From the IMG/VR virus record IMGVR_UViG_2537561977_000020: DNA of 41,610 nt; one strand, written 5' to 3'. Below, piece after piece: positions 271 through 17,051 of this stretch (its first letter is position 1; every line of letters begins with the position of its first letter). This DNA is from a virus. Taxonomy: Duplodnaviria > Heunggongvirae > Uroviricota > Caudoviricetes. The notes below the pieces were generated by a model. It did no database searches, was not told where the DNA came from, and was given only the letters and a program-made list of their open reading frames with translations. The position numbers were made by a program, and so were the translations under genes.

Positions 271-475
271 TTACCGTTAAATCATTTTAAAATCAGTAAG
301 TTGTATCGAGTTTGTATGCTTTACTGTCATTAACTTACTGTATGTTGATCCAGTGTATTTAACCTTGATAAACTCAGTCCAGCAACACAAAACCGCAACA
401 CATTGCATTTTGTCCCGTAGAAAAGACTTGTATGTGTGAGCTTGTTTTCTGCGCCTACGCAGATAAGGATTGAGA

Positions 476-1873
476 ATGCCGCGCACTGTAACACATAATC
501 CGGATAGCCCCAATAATGACGATGTTTTAGCCGCATCTGAAAAATGGGACGCCTGTAAACCCCCCTATACCAGCGCACACATGAAAATCTGTGTTGCTGC
601 CGCCAAAATCATCCTCGCTGCTTCCGGCGTGGCTCGCCGTTCCAAATACGAAAAAGAGAACTATCTCCGTATCGATTTCAGCAAAGCCGGTAAGGTTACA
701 TTTTACGCCGAGTTTCCAAAAAAGATGGGCCTCAAAGGTAAAAAGCTCGGCGAGTGGCCGGAGCTCGCTATCCAGCTGGCGCGCGAAAAAGCACTAGGTA
801 TGGCTGACGGTGGACTGCGGGCAGAGTCCGTACATGCAGCGCTGGAAATGTACCGGGATGACCTCAAAGCCAAAGTAGCCCGGCAGAAGCTGAGCCCGGA
901 CAGTTTCACAACCTACGGGGTGCGTATCGACCGGATTAAAGCAACGTTCGGCGAGCGTGAGGTGTTCAGCGACGTAACATACAATCGGCTGGTGGAAGTG
1001 CTGGACGAGTGGATCGCCACTCGCTCGAACAATAACGCCCTGGAGTTGTTTGCCGAGCTCCGTCGGTTCTGGAAGTTCTGCGCACCTACTCTTTGCAACG
1101 GCCGCAATGTTGCCGCCAGTCTGCCAGATGATTATGTTTCCTCCCGCGTACAGAAACCTACCCCCACACGGCTTTTTACCGATATTGAATCAATCGCCCG
1201 ACTCTGGCTCAATGTTGCTGCCTGCACCTCTGTACACCAGAAGAATGCTGTTCGCTTCATGATCATCACTGGTGTTCGTCCGATTAATGTCCATAACCTG
1301 CGCTGGGACTACGTTTACGAGGAGGCTGGTGAAATTGTTTATCCGGAAGGGGTTATCGGCATGCGAGGGGCTATGAAAACACAAAAGGCTTTCCGCCTGC
1401 CAATAACGCCGGAGATCCGGCGGATTATCGACGAGCAGAAAGCATGGCGTGATTCAGTTCCTGAGTGCAACAGGGATTATGTATTTTTGCAGCCGCGTGA
1501 TCCAATGCAGCCATTTTCAAAACGATCACTGGATAAGCTGGTGAAAACATACAGCCCGGACGGGGCTGTAAAAGGAATAAAACATGATGGGACTGTTAAA
1601 GGGAAAGACGGTGCATTTAATACGATGTGCCGTAAATTCCTTAAGAGCAATGTTATTGCCTTGATGAAGGAAAGAGGCTATTCCCGCTCAGACCGAAGGG
1701 AAATCAGCCTCCTTTGCCTTCACCACTCCAGTAAGTCAGATGACCCGATGGCAGAACATTACGACTTTTCTGATGAGATTTTACAGGAAGAGATTGCGTT
1801 GAAGCGCGAAGCTTTCGAGGCTCACGAGCGGAGCATACTTGCGCAGGTGGCATTGCTACGGCGGCGAGGTTAA
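476..1873 (+). CDS. int: phage tyrosine integrase
   Basis: ATG 476 preceded by AAGGA; C-terminal catalytic region with conserved Arg (ITGVRPINVHNLRWDY) and H..Y tail (LCLHHSSKSDDPMAEHYDF); sits at host/prophage junction. Track ORF begins at TTG 470. Confidence 0.75.
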   Translation: MPRTVTHNPDSPNNDDVLAASEKWDACKPPYTSAHMKICVAAAKIILAASGVARRSKYEKENYLRIDFSKAGKVTFYAEFPKKMGLKGKKLGEWPELAIQLAREKALGMADGGLRAESVHAALEMYRDDLKAKVARQKLSPDSFTTYGVRIDRIKATFGEREVFSDVTYNRLVEVLDEWIATRSNNNALELFAELRRFWKFCAPTLCNGRNVAASLPDDYVSSRVQKPTPTRLFTDIESIARLWLNVAACTSVHQKNAVRFMIITGVRPINVHNLRWDYVYEEAGEIVYPEGVIGMRGAMKTQKAFRLPITPEIRRIIDEQKAWRDSVPECNRDYVFLQPRDPMQPFSKRSLDKLVKTYSPDGAVKGIKHDGTVKGKDGAFNTMCRKFLKSNVIALMKERGYSRSDRREISLLCLHHSSKSDDPMAEHYDFSDEILQEEIALKREAFEAHERSILAQVALLRRRG

Positions 1874-2070
1874 TACTGGCTGCGACACTTTTGAATAAAA
1901 GCGTCGACATTTCGGCGCTCATAACGAACTACTTTTGCACTGAAACGAATTGGAGCCAGGATAGCCCGATGACGATGCTTAATATTCCACTCACATAGCG
2001 TTTTCTGTGTAATACCTAACTTTTGGCATACTTCATCCGGGGTGAGTAAATCGTCGGGTTTCTCGCTCAT
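1870..2070 (-). CDS. xis: excisionase / AlpA-like HTH DNA-binding protein
   Basis: 66-aa ORF, HTH-like LLTPDEVCQKLGITQKTLCEW, adjacent to int. Confidence 0.5.
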   Translation of the reverse strand: MSEKPDDLLTPDEVCQKLGITQKTLCEWNIKHRHRAILAPIRFSAKVVRYERRNVDAFIQKCRSQY

Positions 2071-3461
2071 GCTATACCTCTCTTTTTCATGGCATCGAGC
2101 AGGATGTCCTGCACTGTTCGTTTTGAGTTGCGCCGCTCCATCACCATTTCGTCCATAGTGTCGGCGGCGATAATGTGGTGAATGAACACCGGACGATTGT
2201 GTCCGGCCTGTATCTGTCTGGTTGGGCCGATACGTTCAATAATTTGCTGATATTGCTCCAGGTCCCACCAGTGTGAGAAAAATACCAGTATATATCCGCC
2301 GTCCTGCATGTTCAGACCGTGGCCCGCGCTGGCTGGGTGTGCAAAGAGAACAGGAATCTTTCCGGAATTCCAGTCACGTAGTGTCTGTGGATCCTGGTCG
2401 AGGTGACGACCGCGAGGAAATGCTTTAAGCAAGCGTTCAAGATCGTGTTTCCAGTGATAAGCAACCAGCACAGGTGCGCCAGCTGCTTCGGTCAGTATGC
2501 TGTCCAGCGCCTGTAGTTTGGTGTCATGCAGTTCTGACCAACTTCCGGCGTCGTCTGTGTATACTGCGCCACTGGCGATTTGCAGACACTTCAGTGTCTT
2601 TGCCGCGGCGTTCGGTGCTTCGATGCCTTCGCCATTCAGCTCGAGGAACATTTCCTTTTCCATTTCACGATACTGCTGACGGGCCTTCGGCGGCATATCC
2701 ACGCGGATTACGTTATGGATGGGGGCTTTGATATCGAACCAGTCGGCCGCATCCAGCGAGAGGGTCACATCGGCTAATGCTCGCTGTATTTCAGCCTGTG
2801 AGTGAGCAAACGGCTCCAGTTTGGTCCAGCTCTGCCCTGGAAACTGTATCGAGTTGAACCAGCGTGAGGTAAACGCGCCGTAAGTGCGTCCGAGACGTTG
2901 CCCCTGGTCCACAAACCACGCTTGTCCCCACAAATCTACCAGGCCGTTCGGTGCTGGCGTACCGGTGAGATTTATCCAGCGCCGGACATACTTATGCGCC
3001 ACTTTGCCCAGCGCCGCCGCGCGCTTACCACCACCTCGCAGCCGGAAGGATTTTAGCCGGGTGCTTTCATCCGGAATGACAGTACCGAACGGCCATCGTT
3101 CTCCCAATTCTTCAACCAGCCAGACAAGGTTATCGTAGTTGATGGTGAACACGCTTGCGTTGCTGTTCGCCAGCGCCGTAGAGCGCGCTTTGGCATTACC
3201 AACAATCGGCTGTACCTCGATATTGCGCAGATGCTCCCATTTCAGTGCTTCATCCGGCCATGTGCTTGCTGCAACGCGTAGCGGCGCGAGGACCAGTGCG
3301 GGGCGTGTTTCTGCCCCTGCCATAAAGAGATCTTCCAGCGTAGTGAGCGTTGCCACGGTTTTACCCATTCCCATCCCTGCCCAGATGTTGCCGCGCAGGG
3401 TCTCGATTTGATGATTGATGATGAGATCTTGGTAGGGGCGGGGGGTGAAAATTTGTCCCAT
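2067..3461 (-). CDS. SNF2/DEAD-DEAH family helicase
   Basis: Walker A GMGMGKT, DExx-like VIPDESTRLK, C-terminal helicase motifs; 464 aa. Confidence 0.7.
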   Translation of the reverse strand: MGQIFTPRPYQDLIINHQIETLRGNIWAGMGMGKTVATLTTLEDLFMAGAETRPALVLAPLRVAASTWPDEALKWEHLRNIEVQPIVGNAKARSTALANSNASVFTINYDNLVWLVEELGERWPFGTVIPDESTRLKSFRLRGGGKRAAALGKVAHKYVRRWINLTGTPAPNGLVDLWGQAWFVDQGQRLGRTYGAFTSRWFNSIQFPGQSWTKLEPFAHSQAEIQRALADVTLSLDAADWFDIKAPIHNVIRVDMPPKARQQYREMEKEMFLELNGEGIEAPNAAAKTLKCLQIASGAVYTDDAGSWSELHDTKLQALDSILTEAAGAPVLVAYHWKHDLERLLKAFPRGRHLDQDPQTLRDWNSGKIPVLFAHPASAGHGLNMQDGGYILVFFSHWWDLEQYQQIIERIGPTRQIQAGHNRPVFIHHIIAADTMDEMVMERRNSKRTVQDILLDAMKKRGIA

Positions 3462-3505
3462 AGTATTTTAGCCAGTAGGGCGCGGGGTAATCCCGCGCAA
3501 TAATG

Positions 3506-5853: not shown

Positions 5854-5878
5854 AAAAAGCCCCTGACTGAGCAGGGGC
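5854..5878 (-). terminator. intrinsic terminator after antirepressor cassette 1
   Basis: Minus-strand hairpin GCCCCUG-CUCAGU-CAGGGGC then U5; near-identical copy at 10090..10114. Confidence 0.6.
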
Positions 5879-5889
5879 GAATTGAAGGA

Positions 5890-6654
5890 TTAACGGGGTA
5901 ACTCTGGTGGAATATATCTGCCGATGCGGTCTTCTATGGTCGGCAGAATGCACATGCTGTCGTTAAAGCGGTCATGCAGTTTGTAGACCAGTTTCGAATC
6001 CATTTTTTCGAGAGCAGGCATTAACTGCGCTCGCCAGATTTCATTAATACGTCGGAAGTTATGACAGACGGCGCGGAGATTGTTGATGAACATTTCCTTT
6101 TCTGCGTCACTGATTCCGGTCTGTGCTTTCTGAATGCATTTCGTGCTGCCATTCCGGTAGAAGCGTTCCTGGGCAGCGACAGCCTCATCCACGGATGGAT
6201 AACACCCTACGTAAACGCTTTTCTCTCCGTTCCATGCGTAGGCTCTGTACGGGTTGTATTTGCTCTGGTGATGGTAAACCATCTTCGGCAGGCACTCCCT
6301 GTGCGGCGCCAGTATCGTGGAGGACTGCTGGTGCAGTTTGCGTTCGCATTCGATGAAGTATCGGCGTATCTGGCGACCTTTTTCGTTACGCTCGACCATC
6401 GCCAGTTCTTTGGCTGTATCGAGGGTGAGGTGGTAGTCCTTACAAAGAACATTTTTACGCTTTCCAGTTTTGGAAAGCGTTACGATATAATCCTGATTTT
6501 CAACGAATTTATAGTCTGCAATTCGTGATGTAATCCATGCTGCAAACACTTTCCCTACCCCAAGGAATGCGTGCAGATCGCGAGCATTGCAGAGCAGGGT
6601 GATTTCGTTGGCGATAGCGCCGTTGAAAACGGGGATGAGTTGAGCTGCCATCAC
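5890..6654 (-). CDS. antirepressor (AntA-like N-domain + KilA-C-like C-domain)
   Basis: N-terminal IPVFNGAIANEITLLCNARDLHAFLGVGKVFAAWITSRI; C-terminal ~145 aa nearly identical to ORF 10126..10899. Confidence 0.6.
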   Translation of the reverse strand: MMAAQLIPVFNGAIANEITLLCNARDLHAFLGVGKVFAAWITSRIADYKFVENQDYIVTLSKTGKRKNVLCKDYHLTLDTAKELAMVERNEKGRQIRRYFIECERKLHQQSSTILAPHRECLPKMVYHHQSKYNPYRAYAWNGEKSVYVGCYPSVDEAVAAQERFYRNGSTKCIQKAQTGISDAEKEMFINNLRAVCHNFRRINEIWRAQLMPALEKMDSKLVYKLHDRFNDSMCILPTIEDRIGRYIPPELPR

Positions 6655-6941
6655 AGTTACCTCTAACGGTGAAATTCACCGCCACCACTGAGTTGCAAAT
6701 CTCATATGGGTGGCGAACTGACGAGGTTTGCAATACCGGCGTTAGAGGAAACCGGCGCGCCGAAGCGCCCCCGCCAGCCCGCCATAATGCGAACGTGGCA
6801 AAGCTTGCGACAATAAAAAAGACGCTGGCGCGTCTGGTGTCGCCCCTAACAATTCCGGGTTGCAAATCCCGATCTCCATTTGGGAGATTCGGTGAGCATA
6901 AACCGGAAGGGGGTGATGAGTCAATATCGGGGTAGCAGGGC

Positions 6942-7022
6942 GGTCGGGTACTTGAACACCGCAGCAAGTCGGCCCGTATCCTTAGCCTTTCGGCTGTTTT
7001 TCGGTATACGCGCTACCCGACC
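6942..7022 (-). promoter_or_regulatory. structured leader element (long-range stem enclosing GNRA-type hairpin)
   Basis: Inverted repeat GGTCGGGTA (6942-6950) / TACCCGACC (7014-7022) enclosing 63 nt with AGCC-GAAA-GGCU hairpin; homologous element with compensatory changes at 10938..11016. Confidence 0.45.
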
Positions 7023-7106: not shown

Positions 7107-7136
7107 AATATACCTATTGGTCATCGCGGATGTCAA
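7107..7136 (-). promoter_or_regulatory. sigma70-like promoter of antirepressor cassette 1
   Basis: Minus strand TTGACA (7136-7131), 18-bp spacer, TATATT (7112-7107); conserved copy at 11121..11150. Confidence 0.55.
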
Positions 7137-10059
7137 TCTTTCCGGTATCTGTAAGATTCGAATCCTCCGGCGTTTAGTGGAATGCTCGTGGCCCAGTCAG
7201 GAACGGTTGCCAGTAACTGGCTGACATGTTCTGCTGAGTAATCGGGTGAGTCAGGGGCCTCACTTATAATTTCATCGTGTACCGTCAGCACAATGCTGTA
7301 ACCGGCATCTTCGATAAGCGGCATGTTTCCGGCCAGAACGTCGCGGGCGGCCGCCTGGGTGACGTTCTCCACCAGCTTTCCGCCGTAGGTTTTGAGTCGT
7401 TGCCATTTACGCGAATAAGAGTTAACACCCATATAGGTGATATTCCCTTTTTCGATAACCGGAGACGGGTAGCATACAGCGCGTCCGGATGGTAGCTGTA
7501 TGCGCAGCCACGCGCCATCGCGGCGGATTTTAAGATAACCGCAATACAATGTTTTTTGCGGTGTGGCGATTGCAGTGCGGACGGTGCGCTCCAGTTCGTA
7601 CCAGAAATCGCAGGTCGCCGGGTGCGCCCTGCGCCAGAGACGTTTAAGTGAGTCGCAGGCGATAAATACCCGTTCAGAAAGGCCGTAGGTTGACTTACGT
7701 TTAACCGATTCGTAGTACCAGCTTTTCGCCTCGCGGATAACATCGCGGGGAATGTTTGGCAGTGCGGCGTTCGCCAGCTCGTCGAGATCGAGACTGTAAA
7801 CCAGTGCAAAAGTGATGAAGGCCGACACACCACCACCGTACCCGCAGTTGTGAACGATTAAATGTCCTGAGTCGGTTTTAATCGTGAATCTGTTTCGAGG
7901 CCCCGCATGTGCAATGTCGTAAACATCGCTCCAGCTCGTCGATACGTTTTTGCAGGTCTGCGATTTTTCTTCTGTTGCGGTTATTGTCTGCTTTGGAGAC
8001 GAACTGGATATTACCCGGTTCGTAGCCTTTGTTATTGTCGATGCGATCCATTTCCAACTTTGGGTCATTAAACCCTTTGATTTCCCTGACGTGTAGCAAA
8101 AAAGCTCTTTTATCTTCCTGCCATAGCTGACAAACGTAGATCCCCCGACCGCCGTAGTTGTGAAACAACCTGTTGGTGGGTTTATGGCAACGGCTGATTG
8201 CGGCAGACAATCGGTTAAGTAGCCTGCGACGGGTTTCGTCATCTGCAATAGCATCCGCATAGCATAAGAATTTTTTACGATACTCGTTATGCTTTTTCTT
8301 TGCGCAAATGTTACATCGGGTACTTTTTCCTTTAAGGAGATTGCTGATTGTTGCGGTGTGAGGCATTGCACCACATTTGCATTTGACAAGTATCCTTCGG
8401 TCTTTTCCGGGTACTTTTTCCAGTTCTTTGATAACGGTAAGTTCTCCGAAGCAAGTTCCAGGCTTTGGTGAAGCGTATTTTTGTTTAAAGCGATAAGGTT
8501 TGCCAGCTTCCATCCAGTAGGGGTTAGCACCTGGTGATCCGGGGTCATTTTTGCTCCGTCCAGTGATATTAAGGCTTTGTACCCCCTGTAAATCAGTCCT
8601 TCGTGTTTTACCCATTCTTCTCCGTCCCATAACAAATCCGCGCCCGAAATACTAACAAGCGGCTTATAGCCTTTATCGGTGAGCACTAAAGTATCCGGAG
8701 CTATGCAAGCCAATTCCAGCACTTTACCTATCTGGCGCTGGTCTTTGGTGACGCGCTCAACTTCAATTCCGTAAGCTTTTGCATACGCCAGTTTATATAA
8801 GTCCGGACCCGCTCCGGCGTCGTACTCTCTGAATGCATTCAGTTTCCATTCTTCTCCCGCCAGCCATGCCAGCATACGGCCTTCAATGTTCGACAAGTCA
8901 CTTACCACCAGTTTTTACCTGTTGGCGCGATAATGCAGCCACGTAACGCTGAACTGGTTAGTTCCATGATATTGTCAAACAGCAGGTCTGCACATCCGGC
9001 TTTCAGTGCTTCGATGCCTTCGTCTATTTGTTCCTGTTTTAGTGAAGGGCGGGGAAGATTCTGGGGCTGGAATAGCCGTCCGGCCCAGCGCCCGGTACGT
9101 GACGCCCCGCAGAACTGTAGCGTACCGCGTAAGCGCCCGTCGTGGCTTACGCCTTTCATCAGTGCCTTGTATTTACTGGTGCTGGTAGTACTGGCTTGCT
9201 GGCGGATAGCCAGCAGTTCTTTCACGGCAGATGGTAAATCGGGGTCGGCTATACGACGTTCCAGGGTACTGCGTTGCATGTCTGGTAGCTCCACACCGTA
9301 GGATTCAACGATGTGCTTAATCAACGCGTCCCGTTGTGTGGCTGCCTGCACTTCGCCATCAGTCATTTCCTGTGTACGCTTTGCCAGGCGCTTTTGCTCC
9401 TGGTCTACCGCTTCGATCGCAGCGCGCGCGAGTTGAATGTCCATGCAGACGCCCCGGTCGTTGATCTGCTGATCACGATGCCAGAGCGCCAGTTCTGTCC
9501 CCTGATAATTCCACTTCGGCAGACGTTTATAGACTTCGCGCATTGCCTCGATATCCAGCCCGGCGTAAGCAACAAAGCGCCGCCATTCTTCCGGGTGGGT
9601 TTTACTGGTGGCCCGACGCAGTTTGCTGTTTTTCGGGCGTGGCTTACAGAACAGCTGGATCAGCGCTTTACCTTCTTTGTCCTTCGCTTTGTCTTGCGGG
9701 ACGCCGAGTATTTCGCAGAGTTCCCCCAGAGACCCCGGGAGGCCGTGCGCCAGCGCCTGCACCATTGTGTCGCGCCAACGTTCGACTGGCGGTGCCAGTC
9801 GCGGCATTGCATAACGCAGGACGGTGCGGTCGAAGTGAGAGTTATGAAAATAAAGCAGGGTCTCAGGGGCTGCGATTGCTTCGTATAAGCCGTGTGGAAT
9901 ACCACCACCGGCAGTGATATCCCACACGTTTACGGGCCCGTCGTTGATAGCCCATGCGAACAGCATCACTTCAACGCCTTCGGCATACGCATGGGTACCG
10001 TTCGTAATAGGGATTTCGCAATAGGTTTCCAGGTCGCCCCATAGAATGTTTTCAGACAA
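7133..10059 (-). CDS. family A DNA polymerase (3'-5' exo + pol), frame-broken and intein-containing
   Basis: Exo motifs [33 protein letters not shown]; pol motifs [26 protein letters not shown] (motif A), [10 protein letters not shown]|CGYGGG (motif B split), LTVHDEI (motif C). Two track ORFs (8902..10059, 7133..8908) joined by -1 shift at T5 run 8912-8916. TTG start 10059 with GGAGGA upstream. Confidence 0.7.
7847..8707 (-). mobile_element. intein inserted in DNA polymerase motif B
   Basis: Begins Cys after KVLELA (CIAPDTLVL...), block B TPDHQVLT, ends ...HLIVHN followed by +1 Cys (CGYGGG); 287 codons. Confidence 0.6.
7878..8630 (-). CDS. HNH homing endonuclease ORF nested in the intein, different frame from Hint blocks
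   Basis: [12 protein letters not shown]...[28 protein letters not shown] plus Cys-rich N-region (CKCG...RCNIC); recognisable domain from about 8513 (MEAGKPYRF); frame is -1 relative to intein splicing blocks. Confidence 0.55.
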   Translation of the reverse strand: MGRRRMGKTRRTDLQGVQSLNITGRSKNDPGSPGANPYWMEAGKPYRFKQKYASPKPGTCFGELTVIKELEKVPGKDRRILVKCKCGAMPHTATISNLLKGKSTRCNICAKKKHNEYRKKFLCYADAIADDETRRRLLNRLSAAISRCHKPTNRLFHNYGGRGIYVCQLWQEDKRAFLLHVREIKGFNDPKLEMDRIDNNKGYEPGNIQFVSKADNNRNRRKIADLQKRIDELERCLRHCTCGASKQIHD

Positions 10060-10089
10060 GACAGGGTCCTCCGTGGACTAAACGGTGAC

Positions 10090-10114
10090 AAAAAGCCCCT
10101 GGCTGAGCAGGGGC
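10090..10114 (-). terminator. intrinsic terminator after antirepressor cassette 2
   Basis: Minus-strand hairpin GCCCCUG-CUCAGCC-AGGGGC then U5; paralogous to 5854..5878. Confidence 0.6.
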
Positions 10115-10125
10115 GGATTGAATGA

Positions 10126-10899
10126 TTAACGAGGTAAAGTGGGTGGAATATATCTGCCGATGCGGTCTTCTATGGTCGGCAGAGCACACATGCTGTCGCT
10201 GAAGCGATCATGCAACTGGTAAACCAGTTTCGAATCCATTTTTTCGAGGGCAGGCATTAACTGCGAGCGCCAGATTTCATTGATGCGCCGGAAGTTATGA
10301 CAGATGGCGCGGAGATTGTTGATGAACATTTCCTTCTCTGCGTCATTGATTGCTGTCTGCACTTTCTGAATACGCTTTGTGCTGCCGTTCCGGTAAAAGT
10401 CCTTCTGCGCAGCGACAGCCTCATCCACGGTTGGATAGCACCCGACGTAAACGTTCTTCTCTCCGTTCCATGCGTAGGCTCTGTACGGGTTGTATTTGCT
10501 ACTGTGGTGGTAAACCATTTTCGGCAGACACTCCCTGTGCGGCGCCAGTACCGTGGAGGACTGCGGAATAGCGGTTTCTTTCTCTATAAGATCAAGCACC
10601 CAACGGCGAAATTCTTTTGCTACTGGCGTTGTTGCGAACATCGCTACCAGGTGAGCACCGCGTAGAGAGAAAATGCGGTTATTCATTTGGACGGAGCCGG
10701 TTTTCCTAACGACCGTCAATTTGACGGTCGTTGTCATTTCAACTGAAAACTCATCCCGATTACGGTCATAAATACGAGCGACTGAGTCCGTTCGTGAGTA
10801 TTCCAGCGCGGTCGCCAGAGTGGCAGCGGTGAACCAAGATTTGCCGTTATGTTCGATCGTTTCGAGAATGTGGGATTTGAATACGAGTTGGGTACTCAT
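10126..10899 (-). CDS. Bro-N/KilA-C type antirepressor-like protein
   Basis: Probable start MSTQLVFKSH at 10899 (track ORF extends to 11064 through the leader); Bro-N-like N-domain; C-terminal domain paralogous to 5890..6654. Confidence 0.55.
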   Translation of the reverse strand: MSTQLVFKSHILETIEHNGKSWFTAATLATALEYSRTDSVARIYDRNRDEFSVEMTTTVKLTVVRKTGSVQMNNRIFSLRGAHLVAMFATTPVAKEFRRWVLDLIEKETAIPQSSTVLAPHRECLPKMVYHHSSKYNPYRAYAWNGEKNVYVGCYPTVDEAVAAQKDFYRNGSTKRIQKVQTAINDAEKEMFINNLRAICHNFRRINEIWRSQLMPALEKMDSKLVYQLHDRFSDSMCALPTIEDRIGRYIPPTLPR

Positions 10900-10937
10900 G
10901 GTTTTATGCCCTAGTAGATATTTTGAATTTACCCTTT

Positions 10938-11016
10938 TTGAGAGGGTGGTCGGGCGCTCAAAACCGCTACTAGTCGGCGGGCGTATTTCCCTTCGGAAGG
11001 GTGTTGTATTAGCCGC
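10938..11016 (-). promoter_or_regulatory. structured leader element, cassette 2
   Basis: GGTCGGGCG (10938-10946) / CGCCCGACC (11008-11016) enclosing 61 nt with CCCUUCGGAAGGG hairpin; arms covary with cassette 1. Confidence 0.45.
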
Positions 11017-11120
11017 ACGCCCGACCATTGAATTCTCAATATCATGGACATAAAAAATCCGCATGACTGACGGGCGCGGTTTCCGCTAGTAGAAAAGGTG
11101 TTTTGAGCACCATGAAGCGG

Positions 11121-11150
11121 AATATACCCATTGGTTATCGCGGATGTCAA
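11121..11150 (-). promoter_or_regulatory. sigma70-like promoter of antirepressor cassette 2
   Basis: Minus strand TTGACA (11150-11145), 18-bp spacer, TATATT (11126-11121). Confidence 0.55.
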
Positions 11151-11184
11151 TGTATGCTTTTGCAAAAGGTTGTCATCCCCTTTG

Positions 11185-11210
11185 CAAAAACACCCGGCGT
11201 GTAACCGGGC
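11185..11210 (-). terminator. intrinsic terminator after SSB gene
   Basis: Minus-strand hairpin CCCGG-UUACACG-CCGGG then UGUUUUUG. Confidence 0.5.
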
Positions 11211-11225
11211 GTCTATGAAGAAGGG

Positions 11226-11773
11226 TTAAATTAGTGCTTCAGCATCAGCACTTTCGCTGATATCGTCGAAATCGTCAGCGCTTGCCACTCCGCCGCCAGC
11301 GAATGCATCGCCGTCTCGCAGGAACTGGACTCCGCCGAGTGAGGCATTAATGCGTTTACCGAAATTATTGTCCTGTGCCCAGATATCGATAACGGCGTTT
11401 ACATAGCACCCTGCATAGGGACGTCCATCAGCCTGAATTAGTGGCGAACGATCGCGATCAAGAACAGCTGGGCGCGCTTTGTTAGCAGCGTTCAGGAAGA
11501 AATTGCCGGGAAAGCCTTCATACTCTGCTTTTTCATCACCATCATGCAGGCACAGATTGAGTTTTTCTCCAGCTGGTTATAAATGGACTCCAACTTCTCC
11601 CCCCATTTTTCCTTCGCTACCTGCTTCATAGCTTTACGGATTTCTTCCAGTTGTGGGTGTTTGGGAGACATTAAAAATACTGCGGAGAAACGCGGATCGC
11701 CTTCGCCGTTTACAGTTTTAGCTTCAAACAGAGCAGGAAAAGCTAATCTCACGTTATTTAATTTAATCTTCAT
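11226..11773 (-). CDS. DUF2815-type phage single-strand DNA-binding protein, frame-broken
   Basis: N-terminus MKIKLNNVRLAFPALFEAK; continues in -1 frame after T5 run 11562-11566 as LCLHDGDEKAEYEGFPGNFF...ending 11226; track shows only 11492..11773. Confidence 0.6.
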
Positions 11774-12285
11774 TTCAAAACTCCTATAAATTCTATGGAT
11801 TCTTTTTCCGCTGCTTTACGCGCAATTACAGCTTCCGCTACGGAATTAAATAGACCTAAATGTTTTTCTTTGCCGTGCAGCTTTATATAAGCTCTCCACT
11901 TATTACGGTGACGGCAAACCCCAACGGCACCGCTTTTATTATCAGAGCGTAAGGATTGGTTAATGTTATTTTCGGTAGAGGTTACAAGTCGTAGATTAGA
12001 AAGGGTGTAATTGCTCCGATTTTTGTCTATGTGATCTACCTCTAATCCCGAGGGGATACTACCGTTATGCATAACCCAGACGATGCGATGTAACAACATT
12101 TTCCGACCGTTTACACTTACGTGATAATACCCGTCCGGCCTTATATGTCCCGCTTGCTTATCTGCATATTTAGCATTCCAGGACAAATAGTCTCGCCGGG
12201 TTTTAAAATGGGTGAGCGGACGATATTTCCATATTAAAACGCCATTGTGATACCGGAAGCATTCATTTAAATATTCTTGATCCAA
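11770..12285 (-). CDS. HNH homing endonuclease (HNH + AP2-like DNA-binding domain)
   Basis: EVDHIDKNRSNYTLSNLRLVTSTEN and SGAVGVCRHRNKWRAYIKLHGKEKHLGLF. Confidence 0.65.
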   Translation of the reverse strand: MDQEYLNECFRYHNGVLIWKYRPLTHFKTRRDYLSWNAKYADKQAGHIRPDGYYHVSVNGRKMLLHRIVWVMHNGSIPSGLEVDHIDKNRSNYTLSNLRLVTSTENNINQSLRSDNKSGAVGVCRHRNKWRAYIKLHGKEKHLGLFNSVAEAVIARKAAEKESIEFIGVLK

Positions 12286-12299
12286 ATAACCTCCTTAAA

Positions 12300-13601
12300 T
12301 CAGATGAGGTCTGCGGTTAGCGTATCGTCGGATACGTCGTCGAAATCATTTACAGGGTTGATATTGAGTGCGGGGTGTGGGTCTGACTCGGGAACGACGG
12401 TGGGTTTACCATCAGCTCGTGTTATCAGTGCCTCGACTTTTGACCAACGGCGCGGACTGGCCTTTTTGATAAGTTTTTCGGCTTTTGTGGGACTAATAAG
12501 TTTAAAGTCGAATACTTCTTCAGTTTTGTACCTGAACTGGTCCTTCAGAAGTGCGCGAGCTGCCTCTTCATCACTCCAGGCCCGGTTACCTTGTTTTCCT
12601 GTTACCAGTTTAAACCCCGGTACCGGATGTCCGGCATTGAGTTCATTGTGAACCCGGTCCCGTACTGCCTTTAGCCAGGATTCAATAAAGTCGGCCTGAC
12701 TATAGATCTCCGCAAGCTGCTCAATGGTTAACAGAGGTACACGTGCGCTGGCATTGGTGATTATTTCGCTGACAGGCTTTGTCAGATCTTCAAAATCGCT
12801 GGCCGCTGTTTGTAAATGCTGCATTTTCTGGGCAGTGCAAATAGCTTTTGCTTTACAGAAGCGGCACTGTTTTTCTCCAGGTATGAAGTTTTCCAGCGGT
12901 AGTGTCTCAATGCCTTCGCATTCAGCAATATTGAGAACAAGGATCGCACTGGTTGCGGCCTCCAGCGCCCGTTCACCGAAAGACTGAAGTTCCTGTACGG
13001 TTAACGACCATTCTGAAACGTGGTTGAGCCTTGGCTGGTGAATAAATAATCTTACAGTTTCAAAGTCATACAGCATGCTGAATTGTTCAAGCGCACCCAG
13101 AGCATATAGTTGTAGTTGCTCATTTTGTTCTGCATCAATGCGGACGCCTTTGCCATATTTCAGGTCGTGGATTTGTAATTCGTTACCAGCGATGATTATG
13201 CCGTCGGCAGTTCCGAAAGATTCTTCCACCCCCGTTATATGTGAGAAATCAACACGTTGTTCAACCAATAGTTCATTATTCTGTGCAAGAGTCCAGACCG
13301 TATCAACATACCGGCCAACGGCTTCGACCATTTCATCATCCACCTGTGGGCCAGATGTATCATCAGGATTTTCGCGAAGGGGGTATGAGCCGAGAAACAT
13401 AGAAACATTGCATCCGGCGTAGTGTTCCGGGTGGCTTTGCCTGTTTCGTAGAACTTTTTCAGCAAGTGCGTGCGCTGCAGTGCCCTCGATTGCAAAAGTT
13501 GTTTCTTTATCCGGTTGTGTGGCCTCCAGCGCCAGACTACCCGCACACCTTAGCCAACGATGTGCAGATGATGGTGATAATCGTGCATGAACATCAGGCA
13601 T
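12300..13601 (-). CDS. DUF2800-type PD-(D/E)XK nuclease
   Basis: N-terminal [16 protein letters not shown] and C-terminal Cys cluster [10 protein letters not shown], recalled for DUF2800 proteins that accompany DUF2815 and PolA in phage replication modules. Confidence 0.6.
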
Positions 13602-14112
13602 TCATGACCTCCTGAATGTGTTTTCGCCGCGCAGCCGCTGCGAGTTGTTTGGTGGGGAAATGACCGAGAGATTTGAATTTGCCGTTTACTCGTCCGTAGG
13701 CCTGCCACGGTTTTTTCTTACCTTCGCTGAACCGAACGCCAACCACTCCAGATTTATTTTTTCTGGTGTGAGAGTTAGCCCTGTTTTGTGAAAGAGAGGC
13801 CCAGCGAAGATTTACCGCCCGGTTGTCATCTCGACGACCGTTAATGTGGTCAACTTCAGGGGCAGATCCGGGAATAAATGCTGCGGCAACGAGACGGTGT
13901 ATTTTGACGGTTACCTTTTTACCCGCTTTCCATAAGTCGGTGATTAGATATCCGTCTGTGTCATAGCGTGGTTTTAGTGACTTACCTTTAATGGGATAGG
14001 TGCAGCCAGAACCTTTGTTTAATACAGTTCTGTCGAGGCTTCTCAGGTTGCCAGCGTCTGAAATCTGGTAAATGCCTTCAAAGCCTGAAATATCCTTCCA
14101 GGCTTCCGGCAT
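13594..14112 (-). CDS. HNH homing endonuclease (NUMOD4 + HNH + AP2-like)
   Basis: [79 protein letters not shown]. Confidence 0.65.
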
Positions 14113-14114
14113 GA

Positions 14115-15017
14115 TTAACCCTCCAGTGCTTTTTCAGCCAGGGTGATTACTTCAGCGAGATTTTCATCCGTTACTTCACCAAGTTTCCTGGCTCCCTGTT
14201 TTTCCAGAATTGCAATAGCTTCTGCCCGGTAGCCCCCTTTTGCTAACTGGAGGATCAACCCTTCAGCTTGTTTGCGTAGTGCCGCGAAATCAATTGTATG
14301 GTCATCTTTGGCGTCATTATTCTGGCTGGAATTTGCTGCGTCTCTGCGTGCAAATTCTTCCTGCAGCTGAAGGTACTCAACACGGTTGATCTCGATATGG
14401 CCTTTTTTCAGCATCTCGTTCAACTTGCGTAAGGTGTGGAGTTCACTGGCTGCTGTGCCGGATACATTTTTGACGTAAAACGGCCCCGTGCGTTCTCCAT
14501 CTTTGTTACTGGCCTTTTTCGGTTTAACTTCATCACGCCCATCCGCAGGTGCATCAAGTAGCTGCTCGGCAAAAGCACGTCGCTCGCCGATGGTTGGCAG
14601 GTCGTCCCAGAACTTAAGGATGTTACGGGACAGGTCCAGGAGAGCAGGTTTAAGCAGCGCCCTGGCTCGTTTGACGCCCTGTAATGCGCTGTCGAGAGCA
14701 TCAATCTGAACTACTCGTTTATCGCCTTCAGCATCACGGTAGGCAACAGCACGTTGCAGCATGTCTTCTGTGATAGGGGTGGCTACCGGGTAGAAACCAG
14801 CCAGTGCGATAACGTCGCTGAACTCCAGATCATCCAGTGTCATTGCCGCTGACATGTTTTCAGCTTCAGTTGCTGTATCCCGACATTCCTGCACTCGTGA
14901 AATCGTGTCAGGATGCATAACAATACCTGATGCCATTGTGCGGATAAGACGTTCAAGCAGCGCATTATGTTGTGCCAGAAGTTGATTATTAAGTTCTAGA
15001 CTGGTTTCTAAACTCAT
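14115..15017 (-). CDS. hypothetical protein (300 aa)
   Basis: Long ORF tightly packed in operon; no family recognised. Confidence 0.4.
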   Translation of the reverse strand: MSLETSLELNNQLLAQHNALLERLIRTMASGIVMHPDTISRVQECRDTATEAENMSAAMTLDDLEFSDVIALAGFYPVATPITEDMLQRAVAYRDAEGDKRVVQIDALDSALQGVKRARALLKPALLDLSRNILKFWDDLPTIGERRAFAEQLLDAPADGRDEVKPKKASNKDGERTGPFYVKNVSGTAASELHTLRKLNEMLKKGHIEINRVEYLQLQEEFARRDAANSSQNNDAKDDHTIDFAALRKQAEGLILQLAKGGYRAEAIAILEKQGARKLGEVTDENLAEVITLAEKALEG

Positions 15018-16333: not shown

Positions 16334-16963
16334 TTATCTTTTTCTGCGGAATATGCGATGTTCTACCATTGTCCCTATGATCTTAATTGGTTTTTCCCAG
16401 GAGCGACAAATAGGGTAATCACTATTCAATGGAACAAGTTCAAAGTCTTCCTCACCTTTAGCGCCAATCCCTACCGGGCGGTATTTTTTGAACGTTGCTT
16501 CGTGGCTACCGTTACATGCCGCAACGAATTCACCAGGAGTAGGGTATACGTCAGTGTCAATTATAACGATGTCCCCCTCTTTAAATTCAGGTTCCATTGA
16601 ATCCCCACGTATACGTAGCGCAAATGAACTTTCTGATAGCTCAGCCGTGGTGAGAATGTATTCGAAATCACCTTCTTCACGAAGTAGCTCAGCGCTTGTG
16701 AAAGCCCCGGCTTGTACGTAGCTTAGAACAGGCACCCTTCGAGCTCCGTAGTTGAAATCTGTAACAACATCGCCCCCAAGAAGTAGCCATTTAGGATCGC
16801 ATTCAAGAGCTGACGCTAAAGCAAGAAGATTGCGTGGTTTAAGTGTTTTCCCATTCTCTATAGCTTCAATCGACTGCTGGCTAATGCCCGCTCGTTTCGC
16901 AACTTCGACCTGAGTTAAGTTTAGTTCTGTTCTGCGTTTTTTAGCTCGGTTGGCAAGATTCAT
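16334..16963 (-). CDS. cI: CI-type repressor (HTH + S24 LexA-like peptidase domain)
   Basis: HTH LNLTQVEVAKRAGISQQSIEAIENG; S24 motif RIRGDSMEP; start MNLANRAKK at 16963 with AAGGAG RBS. Confidence 0.8.
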   Translation of the reverse strand: MNLANRAKKRRTELNLTQVEVAKRAGISQQSIEAIENGKTLKPRNLLALASALECDPKWLLLGGDVVTDFNYGARRVPVLSYVQAGAFTSAELLREEGDFEYILTTAELSESSFALRIRGDSMEPEFKEGDIVIIDTDVYPTPGEFVAACNGSHEATFKKYRPVGIGAKGEEDFELVPLNSDYPICRSWEKPIKIIGTMVEHRIFRRKR

Positions 16964-16990
16964 GTTGACTCCTTTTCTGTCATTGATGAT

Positions 16991-17051
16991 TACAGATACT
17001 TCTGTATTTGACAAACAAGGTTGCCTGTGAGGTAATTACAAGTAAACCTGT
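16991..17051. promoter_or_regulatory. OR-like operator/promoter region between cI and cro
   Basis: Palindrome TACAGAtactTCTGTA (16991-17006), TACAAGTAAACCTGTA (17036-17051), TTGACA (17008-17013) with 17-bp spacer to GGTAAT. Confidence 0.5.

What the first reader, a model, noticed from the sequence alone, without database searches (positions are those of the whole stretch)
11770..14112. Three HNH homing-endonuclease genes concentrated in the replication module
Free-standing HNH genes at 11770..12285 (HNH + AP2-like) and 13594..14112 (NUMOD4 + HNH + AP2-like), plus the intein-associated HNH at 7878..8630, sit between SSB, nuclease and polymerase genes. That is an unusual density of selfish elements for a temperate enterobacterial prophage and may mark recent gene-conversion activity here.
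Basis: partly seen in the sequence, partly recalled or inferred. Interest (0 to 1): 0.4.

Follow-up and report, generated by a model that had tools for sequence, protein, structure and literature searches.

The report
Three homing elements, one hidden in-intein
The replication genes of this E. coli prophage carry two free-standing HNH homing-endonuclease genes and a DNA-polymerase intein whose endonuclease-like gene is read in a second, overlapping reading frame; all three are rare, recently copied-in selfish insertions of known kinds.

Summary
ORFs 11770..12285 and 13594..14112 are I-HmuI-like HNH proteins (Pfam HNH_3; the second also has NUMOD4). Their C-terminal domains align with homologues that score as AP2.

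About 263 of 5426 complete E. coli genomes carry this prophage module. Only 4 have HNH#1, 8 have HNH#2 and 4 have the intein, and none has all three. Each insert sits at one exact site and is linked to a short, strongly diverged stretch of the adjacent host gene. That is a co-conversion signature, so "recent gene conversion" is supported.

The third "HNH" needs correcting. ORF 7878..8630 is not an in-frame intein domain. It lies in the -1 frame inside a 287-aa PolA intein (7847..8707). Both frames stay open in every close relative examined (4 isolate phages, about 50 viral metagenome contigs), and 163 phage records hold a full-length match. A start codon in the -1 frame is conserved. The protein resembles the HNH_3 core, but the catalytic His is Arg in every family member, and Pfam and PDB searches find nothing.

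Out-of-frame endonuclease genes in inteins were first reported in 2025-26, with a different nuclease family. This is therefore a new member or variant of a known kind.

The split polymerase and truncated SSB in this window are probably homopolymer sequencing errors.

The parts
11770..12285 (-). HNH#1: free-standing HNH_3 plus AP2-like homing-endonuclease gene (171 aa, TTG start behind AAGGAGG). It is inserted in the 15-nt spacer between the DUF2800 stop and the DUF2815 start, and its stop overlaps the DUF2815 ATG.
   Evidence: Pfam HNH_3 3.4e-19; I-HmuI 1U3E E 2.3e-5; AP2 in 19/29 aligned homologues; junctions against empty alleles; present in 4 of 5426 E. coli genomes.
11732..11773 (-). Recoded first 14 codons of the DUF2815 SSB gene, directly downstream of HNH#1. 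17 of 42 nt differ from the empty allele, with only 2 aa changes. Candidate target or immunity tract.
   Evidence: The same 40-nt variant also occurs without HNH#1 in 8 genomes.
11226..11773 (-). DUF2815/Enc34-type ssDNA-binding protein gene. In this window it is truncated to a 93-aa ORF (11492..11773) by a 1-nt deletion in an A6 run at 11561. The lower coordinate is approximate, by analogy with the 549-nt gene of L002.
   Evidence: Pfam Enc34_ssDNA-bd matches profile positions 1-64 of 176 only; indel against L002; intact 549-nt gene in relatives.
12300..13601 (-). DUF2800 / PD-(D/E)XK nuclease gene (433 aa), the host gene between the two HNH genes.
   Evidence: Pfam DUF2800 8e-109, PDDEXK_1 1.9e-9.
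13539..13601 (-). Diverged 5' end of DUF2800, directly downstream of HNH#2. 18 mismatches in 58 nt against the otherwise 99%-identical O121 prophage, with 3 aa changes. Co-conversion or immunity tract.
   Evidence: The 72-nt tract is 100% identical only in the 8 HNH#2-positive genomes; 3 HEG-less mosaics match at 90-92%.
13594..14112 (-). HNH#2: free-standing NUMOD4 plus HNH_3 plus AP2-like homing-endonuclease gene (172 aa). It is inserted exactly at the DUF2800 start codon (ATGCC duplicated) and overlaps the DUF2800 start by 8 nt.
   Evidence: Pfam NUMOD4 3.5e-15, HNH_3 4.2e-9; I-HmuI E 2.7e-15 over residues 4-117; junctions; 8 of 5426 genomes.
7847..8707 (-). Class-1 intein (287 aa) in motif B of the family-A DNA polymerase: GKVLELA|C1...T55xxH58...VHN287|C+1 GYGGG. 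Only the first ~95 and last ~30 residues are conserved. The ~160-aa middle is an unconserved read-through of the other gene's frame.
   Evidence: Intein-less allele reads GKVMELG-LGYGG; motifs and conservation; weak profile hits to solved inteins NEQ068 5e-4 and PI-MtuI 0.03; homologue annotated as an intein in Salmonella phage Ent1; 4 of 5426 genomes.
7878..8630 (-). Nested ORF in the -1 frame of the intein. It is 250 aa from the first ATG; the conserved start is the ATG at 8615 (245 aa). It encodes a Cys4 zinc ribbon plus a helical region plus an HNH_3-like beta-beta-alpha motif, [28 protein letters not shown]. Presumed homing endonuclease of the intein.
   Evidence: Frames; PHROG 374 4.7e-37; 166 homologues; hhalign to the HNH#1 core E 1.4e-4; AF2 pLDDT 84; zero stops in both frames against 4-16 stops in free-standing relatives; nested in 50 of 50 close IMG/VR relatives; start-codon conservation.
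8708..8790 (-). N-extein flank of foreign origin, ~83% identical to intein-less alleles against ~96% elsewhere. It includes amino-acid changes: [23 protein letters not shown] against AYGFDPDDVDKHMRQIGKVMELG.
   Evidence: The tract occurs only in the 4 intein-positive genomes.
7133..10059 (-). Family-A DNA polymerase gene, host of the intein. In this window it is split into ORFs 8902..10059 and 7133..8908 by a 1-nt deletion in an A6 run at 8911. It is a single 944-aa ORF in the near-identical O121 prophage.

Best explanation
The replication operon of this temperate E. coli prophage has been colonised by three independent homing-type selfish elements.

(1) HNH#1 and (2) HNH#2 are free-standing, I-HmuI-like HNH endonuclease genes with an AP2-type DNA-binding tail. 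Each is slotted exactly into a gene junction of the operon and reuses the junction's ribosome-binding site or start context. They most likely spread by 'intronless homing'. The enzyme nicks or cuts the HEG-less allele in the 5' end of the gene just downstream. Recombinational repair from a HEG-carrying (pro)phage then copies in the HEG together with the adjacent 40-65 nt. That recoded stretch renders the carrier allele uncuttable.

(3) The PolA gene carries a class-1 intein in motif B. The intein's DNA also encodes, in the -1 frame, a ~245-aa zinc-ribbon / HNH_3-like protein. This protein is translated separately, by internal initiation at a conserved ATG that overlaps the intein's WDGxxW motif. 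It presumably cuts the intein-less PolA allele. The intein frame is kept free of stop codons so that the polymerase can still be made and spliced.

Shown: domain content, exact insertion points, presence/absence polymorphism, linked diverged flanks, double-open frames, frame-specific conservation, start-codon bias.

Inferred: cleavage activity and targets, splicing, independent translation, direction of transfer.
For: Domains.

Empty sites and exact junctions against phage vB_EcoM-689R2 and five E. coli prophages.

Rarity at a single fixed site.

Linked diverged tracts:
- DUF2815 5' end: 17 of 42 nt differ, with 2 aa changes.
- DUF2800 5' end: 18 of 58 nt differ, on a background of 12 mismatches in 1240 nt.
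- N-extein flank: 83% identity.
 The DUF2800 and N-extein tracts are found only with their insert, in 8 of 8 and 4 of 4 genomes. Mosaic alleles L010 and L007 show variable tract ends.

Window against the O121 prophage: 99.3% identical on both sides of a ~570-nt patch made of HNH#2 plus the tract.

Nested ORF:
- It is in the -1 frame in the window, Salmonella phage Ent1, Pseudomonas phage MR14, Vibrio phage 97.13 and EBPR siphovirus 2.
- There are 0 stops in both frames over ~500 nt, against 4-16 stops in the same frame of four free-standing relatives.
- All ~50 IMG/VR relatives at >=34% identity are nested in a 2.5-3.9-kb +1-frame ORF.
- Frame A is conserved only in the splicing blocks; frame B is conserved in the middle.
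- The base that creates the frame-B start is A 39, G 6, T 4, C 0 in 49 non-redundant loci, although the host genes have 62% GC3 and 30% C3.
- The N-terminal 40 residues are disordered in the model and absent from free-standing relatives.
Against: - No activity data exist for any of the three proteins.
- The nested protein has no Pfam, NCBIfam or PDB-sequence hit and no significant Foldseek match to solved structures.
- Its HNH general-base His is Arg in every relative scored, so a canonical HNH mechanism is unlikely.
- The intein is barely detected by curated intein profiles (intein_Nterm E 0.13).
- The recoded DUF2815 tract also exists without HNH#1 in 8 genomes. That could mean HEG loss or pre-existing polymorphism rather than co-conversion.
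- The SD-like G-rich stretch before the nested start is largely forced by the W-D-G codons.
- In this particular window pol and SSB are frameshifted. If those frameshifts are real, the elements sit in a dead prophage.
Confidence: 0.7

Rival explanations
1. The nested -1-frame protein is not a nuclease. With Arg in place of the catalytic His, it would be a sequence-specific DNA-binding protein (zinc ribbon plus degenerate His-Me finger) with some other role, for example a regulator or a targeting factor for another nuclease. Intein mobility would then depend on a different enzyme, or the intein is no longer mobile.
For: - The D-R-x-D motif is invariant in 56 nested and 29 free-standing relatives.
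- There is no Pfam HNH hit even at E<=10.
- There is no significant match to solved nucleases by sequence or Foldseek.
- Relatives are variously annotated as 'DNA-binding domain protein', 'AP2 domain protein' or 'HTH'.
Against: - The family behaves like homing endonuclease genes. Free-standing members sit between conserved genes, such as the RNAP subunit genes in N4-like phages and pol/VRR-NUC.
- The intein is sporadic (4 of ~263) and carries a foreign extein flank.
- Homologous inteins occupy three different PolA sites.
- The motif aligns to the HNH_3 core, and the metal-binding Asn positions are kept.
Confidence: 0.2
2. The HNH genes are retained because they benefit the prophage. They would act as weapons in competition between related phages (marker exclusion, as with T4 Seg/Mob enzymes against T2) or as part of replication or recombination, and not as purely selfish passengers.
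For: - Known biology of T4 free-standing endonucleases and marker exclusion (PMC2988022).
- They are placed inside the early replication/recombination operon, with tight translational coupling.
Against: - They are absent from more than 95% of otherwise >=95%-identical prophages, so they are dispensable.
- They are not adjacent to the terminase.
- This reading is not mutually exclusive with homing; it concerns selection, not mechanism.
Confidence: 0.15
3. The endonuclease domain is made as a fusion to the intein's N-terminal half by programmed -1 ribosomal frameshifting at the T_TTA_AAC heptamer (8489..8483). This heptamer lies just upstream of the conserved core of the nested ORF.
For: A canonical X_XXY_YYZ heptamer sits in the intein frame at the exact domain boundary, and frame B is the -1 frame.
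Against: - The heptamer is absent in Ent1 and Vibrio 97.13 and different in MR14.
- The RNA downstream shows no unusual stability: z = 0.33, and 122 of 200 shuffles fold at least as well.
- A start codon is conserved 37 codons upstream instead.
- The product would be a non-splicing truncated polymerase fusion.
Confidence: 0.04
4. The nested ORF is a decaying relic of a free-standing HEG that once invaded a mini-intein, or the two-frame picture is a sequencing artefact of this error-prone assembly.
For: - The window has about 14 homopolymer indels relative to a 99%-identical genome.
- The two apparent 'in-frame' IntN-HNH fusions in databases are explained (L097), or probably explained (SS3e, DNA not examined), by single indels.
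Against: - The intein DNA is 99.8-100% identical in four independent complete genomes.
- The ORF is intact and under protein-level conservation at 35-65% identity in more than 50 loci.
- The architecture is the same in isolate phages from four host genera.
Confidence: 0.03

Closest known systems
I-HmuI (Bacillus phage SPO1 intron-encoded HNH nicking endonuclease, PDB 1U3E) and the Pfam HNH_3 / NUMOD4 homing endonucleases
   Same: HNH#2 aligns over the N-terminal NUMOD4 sheet plus the HNH core (E 2.7e-15), and HNH#1 over the HNH core (E 2.3e-5). The D-H...N...N motif is conserved.
   Different: They are free-standing, not intron-encoded. The C-terminal DNA-binding part is AP2-like, not the helical/HTH tail of I-HmuI. 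Targets and strand specificity are unknown.
Free-standing Seg/Mob endonucleases of T4-like phages ('intronless homing', marker exclusion; Edgell, Gibb & Belfort 2010, PMC2988022)
   Same: Intergenic insertion between conserved genes, presence/absence polymorphism among close relatives, and co-conversion of flanking sequence.
   Different: The host is a temperate enterobacterial prophage, not a lytic T-even phage. The diverged tracts here abut the HEG (40-65 nt), whereas T4 cleavage sites can lie hundreds of bp away.
HNH-AP2 endonucleases of phages and cyanobacteria (proposed ancestors of plant AP2/ERF domains; Magnani et al. 2004, cited from my own knowledge)
   Same: An HNH_3 core followed by a ~55-aa AP2-type domain. 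19 of 29 aligned homologues hit Pfam AP2.
   Different: The two window proteins themselves fall below Pfam AP2 detection.
Inteins with an out-of-frame (frame 3) endonuclease VII-like homing endonuclease in actinobacteriophages (bioRxiv 10.1101/2025.01.02.630785). Related: the hidden out-of-frame HNH in the ShiLan insertion of phage methylases (PMC11855218), and the cyanobacterial dnaX intein with an out-of-frame endonuclease (bioRxiv 2026, title and abstract start seen only).
   Same: A same-strand second ORF inside the intein, between the splicing blocks, in the -1 (= frame 3) register. The intein frame is kept open, and annotation pipelines miss it.
   Different: - The nuclease family differs: no PF02945/EndoVII hit, and instead an HNH_3-like D-R-x-D family with a Cys4 ribbon.
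- The host gene is PolA motif B in phages of Gram-negative bacteria.
- The ORF also overlaps ~60 codons of the N-terminal splicing domain, starting in intein codon 31.
- Here a conserved internal start codon and a large, old clade (more than 50 diverged loci) are documented.
PolA intein of Salmonella Jerseyviruses (e.g. vB_SenS-Ent1 gp37, HE775250, annotated 'intein encoding splicing domains')
   Same: A homologous intein (31-39% identity in frame A) with the same nested ORF (about 49% identity in frame B), in the same relative frame.
   Different: It is inserted 4 codons upstream (GKA|C...HN|CELGLGY against GKVLELA|C...HN|CGYGG). In most records the nested ORF is not annotated.
Collaborative homing / mobE-type trans homing (a free-standing endonuclease mobilising an endonuclease-less intron; PMC2988022)
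   Same: A splicing element and an endonuclease gene of free-standing ancestry form a composite mobile unit.
   Different: The splicing element is an intein, and the endonuclease gene is physically nested and overlaps it in another frame.

Membership tests
HNH_3 / I-HmuI-like HNH homing endonucleases | Pfam HNH_3 score above the gathering threshold | tested here: met
   HNH#1 scores 68.7 bits and HNH#2 36.3 bits, against a cut-off of 24.8. This applies to ORFs 11770..12285 and 13594..14112 only.
HNH_3 / I-HmuI-like HNH homing endonucleases | Catalytic D-H (general base) ... N ... N/H beta-beta-alpha-metal motif | tested here: met
   HNH#1 has EVDHIDKN..SNLRLVT..ENNIN and HNH#2 has [21 protein letters not shown]85 is invariant and D84, N97 and N106/N109 are invariant or nearly so in 29 homologues. 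Both align to the I-HmuI DH/N residues.
HNH_3 / I-HmuI-like HNH homing endonucleases | The same two features, for the nested ORF 7878..8630 | tested here: not met
   There is no Pfam HNH hit at E<=10. The motif is [12 protein letters not shown], with Arg at the His position in 56 of 56 nested and 29 of 29 free-standing relatives. Only a profile-profile match to the HNH#1 core supports kinship (E 1.4e-4, probability 52%). It is a relative of the fold, not a canonical member.
HNH_3 / I-HmuI-like HNH homing endonucleases | Site-specific nicking or cleavage of a cognate HEG-less target | not testable with these tools
   Candidate targets are named from the recoded tracts.
Free-standing homing endonuclease genes (intronless homing) | Precise intergenic insertion with HEG-less alleles in close relatives, and co-conversion of flanks | tested here: met
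   Empty sites occur in more than 95% of ~263 related prophages. Junctions are defined to the base. The DUF2800 tract is 100% identical only in the 8 HNH#2-positive genomes. For HNH#1 the linkage is looser: its recoded tract also occurs without the HEG in 8 genomes.
AP2 DNA-binding domain (PF00847) | Pfam AP2 profile match | tested here: inconclusive
   The window proteins give no AP2 hit at E<=10, and the C-terminal peptide has no PDB hit. However, 19 of 29 aligned homologues hit AP2 (best E 1.4e-9) in the columns that align with the window C-termini.
Class-1 intein (Hint domain) | In-frame insertion in a conserved host motif relative to an intein-less allele; Cys1, block B TxxH, C-terminal HN, +1 Cys/Ser/Thr | tested here: met
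   861 nt lie between GKVLELA and CGYGGG in PolA motif B. C1, T55, H58, H286 and N287 are invariant in 4 lineages, and +1 is Cys.
Class-1 intein (Hint domain) | Significant match to curated intein profiles or solved inteins | tested here: inconclusive
   NCBIfam intein_Nterm scores E 0.13, below its cut-off. Pfam gives nothing. A 4-sequence profile hits the NEQ068 split intein at 5e-4 and the PI-MtuI mini-intein at 0.03-0.05.
Class-1 intein (Hint domain) | Protein splicing that yields active polymerase | not testable with these tools
   Inferred from the essential host gene and from intact pol ORFs in isolated, viable phages (Ent1, MR14).
Inteins with an out-of-frame nested homing endonuclease (2025 preprint class) | A same-strand ORF in another frame within the intein, with the intein frame kept open | tested here: met
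   The -1 frame has 0 stops in both frames in 5 of 5 isolate or reference loci and about 50 of 50 IMG/VR loci.
Inteins with an out-of-frame nested homing endonuclease (2025 preprint class) | Endonuclease VII-like (IPR004211/PF02945) nested enzyme | tested here: not met
   There is no PF02945 hit, only a weak hit to PHROG 1035 'endonuclease VII' at 3e-7. The enzyme family differs from the published cases.

The most novel reading that the evidence does not exclude
The PolA intein and its -1-frame ORF form an old, widespread two-frame composite element: about 160 isolate phage genomes (mostly closely related Salmonella Jerseyviruses) and at least 50 diverged metagenomic loci, at three PolA insertion sites. 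In it, a free-standing-type endonuclease gene is translated from a conserved internal start inside the intein's splicing domain. The enzyme belongs to an uncharacterised 'D-R-x-D' branch of the His-Me finger fold that lacks the general-base histidine. It would therefore use either a new catalytic arrangement or a non-nucleolytic way of promoting homing.
Probability: 0.5. Interest if true: 0.6.

Novelty: new member of a known kind. Interest (0 to 1): 0.45.

Why it matters
For this window, the region is a clean natural example of homing in a temperate prophage. An O121-type prophage that is 99% identical on both sides differs by one ~570-nt patch (HNH#2 plus 63 nt of recoded host gene). All three insertion sites and candidate target sequences are defined and ready for cleavage assays.

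More generally, the 'endonuclease-less' PolA intein annotated in well-studied Salmonella Jerseyviruses and many other phages in fact carries an overlapping endonuclease-like gene that annotation pipelines skip. This adds a large, diverged clade, with evidence for a selected internal start codon, to the very recently described class of inteins with out-of-frame endonucleases. It supports the idea that inteins acquire endonucleases by invasion of free-standing genes. It also flags a widespread phage 'HNH' family whose catalytic histidine is missing and whose biochemistry has not, to my knowledge, been characterised.

Tried and rejected
- **Curated profiles for the nested ORF:** Pfam, NCBIfam and PDB-sequence searches found nothing beyond a zinc-ribbon resemblance.
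- **-1 frameshifting at T_TTA_AAC:** the heptamer is not conserved and there is no stable downstream structure.
- **Natural in-frame intein-HNH fusions:** P0092 is explained by a single indel in a frameshift-ridden contig. For SS3e P0083 the same explanation is inferred from its protein alignment only; its DNA was not examined.
- **Direct AP2 detection:** Pfam at E<=10 and a PDB search of the C-terminal peptide were both negative. This was resolved only through homologues.
- **Real pseudogenes?** I considered that the split pol and truncated SSB were real pseudogenes or programmed events. About 14 similar homopolymer indels across the window, relative to a 99%-identical genome, point to sequencing error.
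- **Unread source:** the 2026 bioRxiv paper on the cyanobacterial dnaX intein could not be opened; only its title and abstract start were seen.
- **Self-promoter for the HNH genes:** the promoter scan showed no enrichment over shuffles.


Full report
**1. What is there**

The window is a temperate, myovirus-type E. coli prophage.
- It has an integrase (470..1873), a LexA-like repressor (16334..17014) and contractile-tail genes.
- Its closest isolate is phage vB_EcoM-689R2, ON470582.
- Related modules occur in about 263 of 5426 complete E. coli genomes.

Its minus-strand early operon reads, 5' to 3':
- a hypothetical gene (14115..15017);
- HNH#2 (13594..14112);
- the DUF2800/PD-(D/E)XK nuclease (12300..13601);
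- HNH#1 (11770..12285);
- the DUF2815/Enc34-type SSB (..11773);
- a Bro-N cassette with an sRNA-Xcc1 copy (10051..11192);
- the family-A DNA polymerase (7133..10059).

**2. The two free-standing genes**

HNH#1 hits Pfam HNH_3 at 3.4e-19. HNH#2 hits NUMOD4 at 3.5e-15 and HNH_3 at 4.2e-9. Both match the solved homing endonuclease I-HmuI, at E 2.3e-5 and 2.7e-15, with the D-H...N...N residues in place. The two proteins are 37% identical to each other over 115 residues.

Neither hits Pfam AP2 directly. In an alignment with 27 homologues, the C-terminal SG..GV...W.A.I...GK.KHLG.F...A pattern is shared, and 19 of the 29 members hit AP2. 'HNH + AP2-like' is therefore right by homology.

**3. Insertion points and gene conversion**

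I compared the window with the HEG-free phage (L001) and five E. coli prophages (L002, L007-L010).

*HNH#1*
- It begins right after TGATTTAAGGA, in the 15-nt DUF2800-DUF2815 spacer.
- It ends overlapping the DUF2815 ATG.
- The next 42 nt of DUF2815 differ at 17 positions from the empty allele, with only 2 amino-acid changes.

*HNH#2*
- It is inserted exactly at the DUF2800 start, with ATGCC present at both ends.
- Against the O121 prophage L002, DUF2800 shows 12 mismatches over 12300..13500, then 18 in 13539..13596.
- Beyond the insert, identity returns to 99.3%.

*Linkage*
- The 72-nt DUF2800 tract is 100% identical only in the 8 HNH#2-positive genomes. Three HEG-less mosaics match at 90-92%.
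- The intein's N-extein flank (8708..8790) is about 83% identical to intein-less alleles, includes amino-acid replacements, and occurs only in the 4 intein-positive genomes.

*Census*
- The intein is in 4 genomes, HNH#1 in 4 and HNH#2 in 8. None has all three, and each occupies a single site.

This is the pattern expected for homing with co-conversion (PMC2988022). The window looks like an O121-type prophage (intein plus HNH#1, 100% identical inserts) that additionally received a ~570-nt HNH#2 patch.

**4. The third 'HNH' is an overlapping gene**

*The intein*
- It spans 7847..8707, which is 287 aa.
- It has C1, T55xxH58, a C-terminal VHN, and Cys at +1.
- It interrupts PolA motif B: GKVLELA|...|CGYGGG against GKVMELG-LGYGG in empty alleles.
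- A 4-sequence profile hits solved inteins weakly: NEQ068 at 5e-4 and PI-MtuI at 0.03.

*The nested ORF*
- ORF 7878..8630 lies in the -1 frame of this intein.
- The same arrangement holds in Salmonella phage Ent1, Pseudomonas phage MR14, Vibrio phage 97.13 and EBPR siphovirus 2. In Ent1 the intein is annotated as 'splicing domains' only.
- Every one of about 50 IMG/VR relatives with at least 34% identity shows it too, each nested in a 2.5-3.9-kb ORF in the +1 frame.
- 163 phage records hold a full-length match, most of them closely related Salmonella Jerseyviruses. Of the rows listed, most lie under a 'DNA polymerase' annotation.

*Frame-specific conservation*
- Frame A (the intein frame) is conserved only in the first ~95 and last ~30 residues.
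- Frame B is conserved through the middle.
- Over the ~500-nt core, both frames have zero stops in the nested loci.
- Four free-standing relatives have 4-16 stops in the corresponding frame.

Both frames are therefore held open by selection.

**5. How the nested protein is probably made**

The free-standing relatives begin at about residue 48-53 of the nested ORF, and the first 40 residues are disordered in the model.

A frame-B start codon overlaps the second Trp of the intein motif WDGxxW.
- In 49 non-redundant loci, the base preceding that TGG is A in 39, G in 6, T in 4 and C in 0. The resulting frame-B codons are ATG, GTG and TTG, never CTG.
- The codon choices behind this are GAA 26 against GAG 4, CAA 4 against CAG 0, GCA 3 of 3, TCA 5 against TCG 1, and AAT 3 of 3.
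- The host genes nevertheless have 62% GC3 and 30% C3.
- A G-rich SD-like stretch (TGGGAYGG..) precedes the start. It is largely imposed by the W-D-G codons.

A T_TTA_AAC heptamer at the domain boundary in the window is not conserved and has no structured RNA downstream (z = 0.33).

Internal initiation at 8615 is therefore the best reading. This step is inferred.

**6. What the nested protein is**

- It gets strong PHROG hits to families labelled HNH.
- It has 166 homologues, and a confident AF2 model with pLDDT 84.
- The model shows a Cys4 ribbon (C79, C81, C101, C104, numbered from the ATG at 8615), helices, and a beta-beta-alpha unit at residues 188-213.
- That unit, [28 protein letters not shown], aligns to the HNH#1 core LEVDHIDKN..NLRLVT..ENNIN by profile comparison (E 1.4e-4).
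- The general-base His is Arg in all 56 nested and 29 free-standing relatives scored.
- Pfam, NCBIfam, PDB-sequence and Foldseek-PDB searches give nothing significant.

It is thus a relative of the HNH fold but not a canonical HNH. Nuclease activity is inferred from its homing-like genomic behaviour:
- sporadic inteins with foreign flanks;
- free-standing members wedged between conserved genes;
- homologous inteins at two sites 4 codons apart, plus a third PolA site.

**7. Relation to what is known**

Free-standing HNH genes and their co-conversion are classical (PMC2988022).

Inteins with an endonuclease gene in another frame were first described in 2025 for actinobacteriophages. Those carry an endonuclease VII-like enzyme in 'frame 3' (bioRxiv 10.1101/2025.01.02.630785). 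Related reports are the hidden HNH of the ShiLan insertion (PMC11855218) and a 2026 preprint on the cyanobacterial dnaX intein, of which I saw only the title and abstract start.

The present case shares that architecture but differs in several ways:
- a different nuclease family;
- a different host gene (PolA) and phage group;
- deeper overlap with the splicing domain;
- a large diverged clade.

Literature searches found no paper noting the nested ORF in Jerseyvirus PolA inteins.

**8. Caveats**

In this window pol is split at 8911 and the SSB is truncated at 11561, each by loss of one A from an A6 run. About 14 further homopolymer indels are scattered through the window relative to the 99%-identical O121 prophage. 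This points to sequencing error, not decay. The intein region itself is 99.8-100% identical in four complete genomes.

No enzymatic, splicing or translation data exist. The targets are proposed from the recoded tracts only.

**9. Verdict**

It needs correcting for the third ORF, which is an out-of-frame overlapping gene with a non-canonical motif. Overall this is a new member or variant of known kinds, of moderate interest.

Noticed in passing
window 8911 and 11561; also 18999, 21070, 27612, 29818, 29839, 30040, 30771, 31482, 31933, 32517, 33065, 36388: Single-base indels, most of them in homopolymer runs, relative to a 99%-identical O121 prophage. They split PolA, truncate the SSB and probably break the primase and several structural genes. 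The pattern is typical of sequencing error, not decay.
   Followed up: partly
window 6706..7022 (-) and 10940..11026 (-): Rfam hits above gathering score: sRNA-Xcc1 twice (6934..7022, 10940..11026), C4 antisense RNA (6706..6789) and isrK (6815..6888). All lie upstream of anti-repressor-type genes (AntA 5890..6654, Bro-N 10126..11064), each behind an 11/12 sigma-70-like promoter (7136..7107, 11150..11121). From my own knowledge, this resembles a P1 immI-like antisense-controlled anti-repressor unit, present twice.
   Followed up: no
window 10051..11192: The Bro-N plus sRNA-Xcc1 unit, with its own promoter-like site and a terminator-like hairpin (10114..10095), replaces a plus-strand hypothetical ORF found at the same place between SSB and pol in relatives. 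It is a swappable cargo slot. Relatives carry TIR-domain, Nmad5 or other genes nearby.
   Followed up: partly
window 5854..6328 and 10090..10564: The AntA and Bro-N genes have different N-terminal domains but share a ~475-bp 3' module (about 88-92% identity between copies and counterparts). The module includes an AP2-like segment (YRAYAWNGEK.VYVGCYP.VDEAVAAQ) that weakly hits PHROG 99 'HNH endonuclease'. This looks like domain shuffling with the HNH-AP2 family.
   Followed up: no
L066 (IMGVR_UViG_3300049795_000015), host ORF 513..3500: A homologous intein with the same -1-frame nested ORF sits at a third PolA position (..ICEN|C...VHN|CCQAVARDVL, the QAxARD motif). Among the others, two sites 4 codons apart are used (GKx|C..HN|C[EVIQ]LxL[GI][YF] and GKxxxL[AGS]|C..HN|[CS]G[YF]..). 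This is evidence of site switching.
   Followed up: partly
L097 (ENA contig, P0092); Salmonella phage SS3e protein P0083: Database proteins that look like in-frame IntN-HNH fusions. In L097 a single indel near 2600, in a contig with other pol frameshifts, accounts for the fusion. For SS3e the same explanation is inferred from the protein alignment only; its DNA was not examined. Neither is likely to be a natural in-frame HNH intein.
   Followed up: yes
L007 8841..9134 (E. coli STEC1590 prophage): A relative carries a further small 'HNH endonuclease signature motif' gene upstream of the operon, at a site that is empty in the window. The family has more HEG insertion sites than the three seen here.
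   Followed up: no
H74, NZ_CM177011.1 (E. coli VL40) 1218673..1219543: The intein region is 871 nt, not 870, and PolA is annotated as two proteins. This is an independent frameshift, or a sequencing error, in another intein-positive genome.
   Followed up: no
L004 4730..5675 (Salmonella phage Ent1): The same Jerseyvirus genomes also carry a helicase intein with a canonical in-frame LAGLIDADG endonuclease. Canonical and two-frame intein architectures therefore coexist in one replication module.
   Followed up: no
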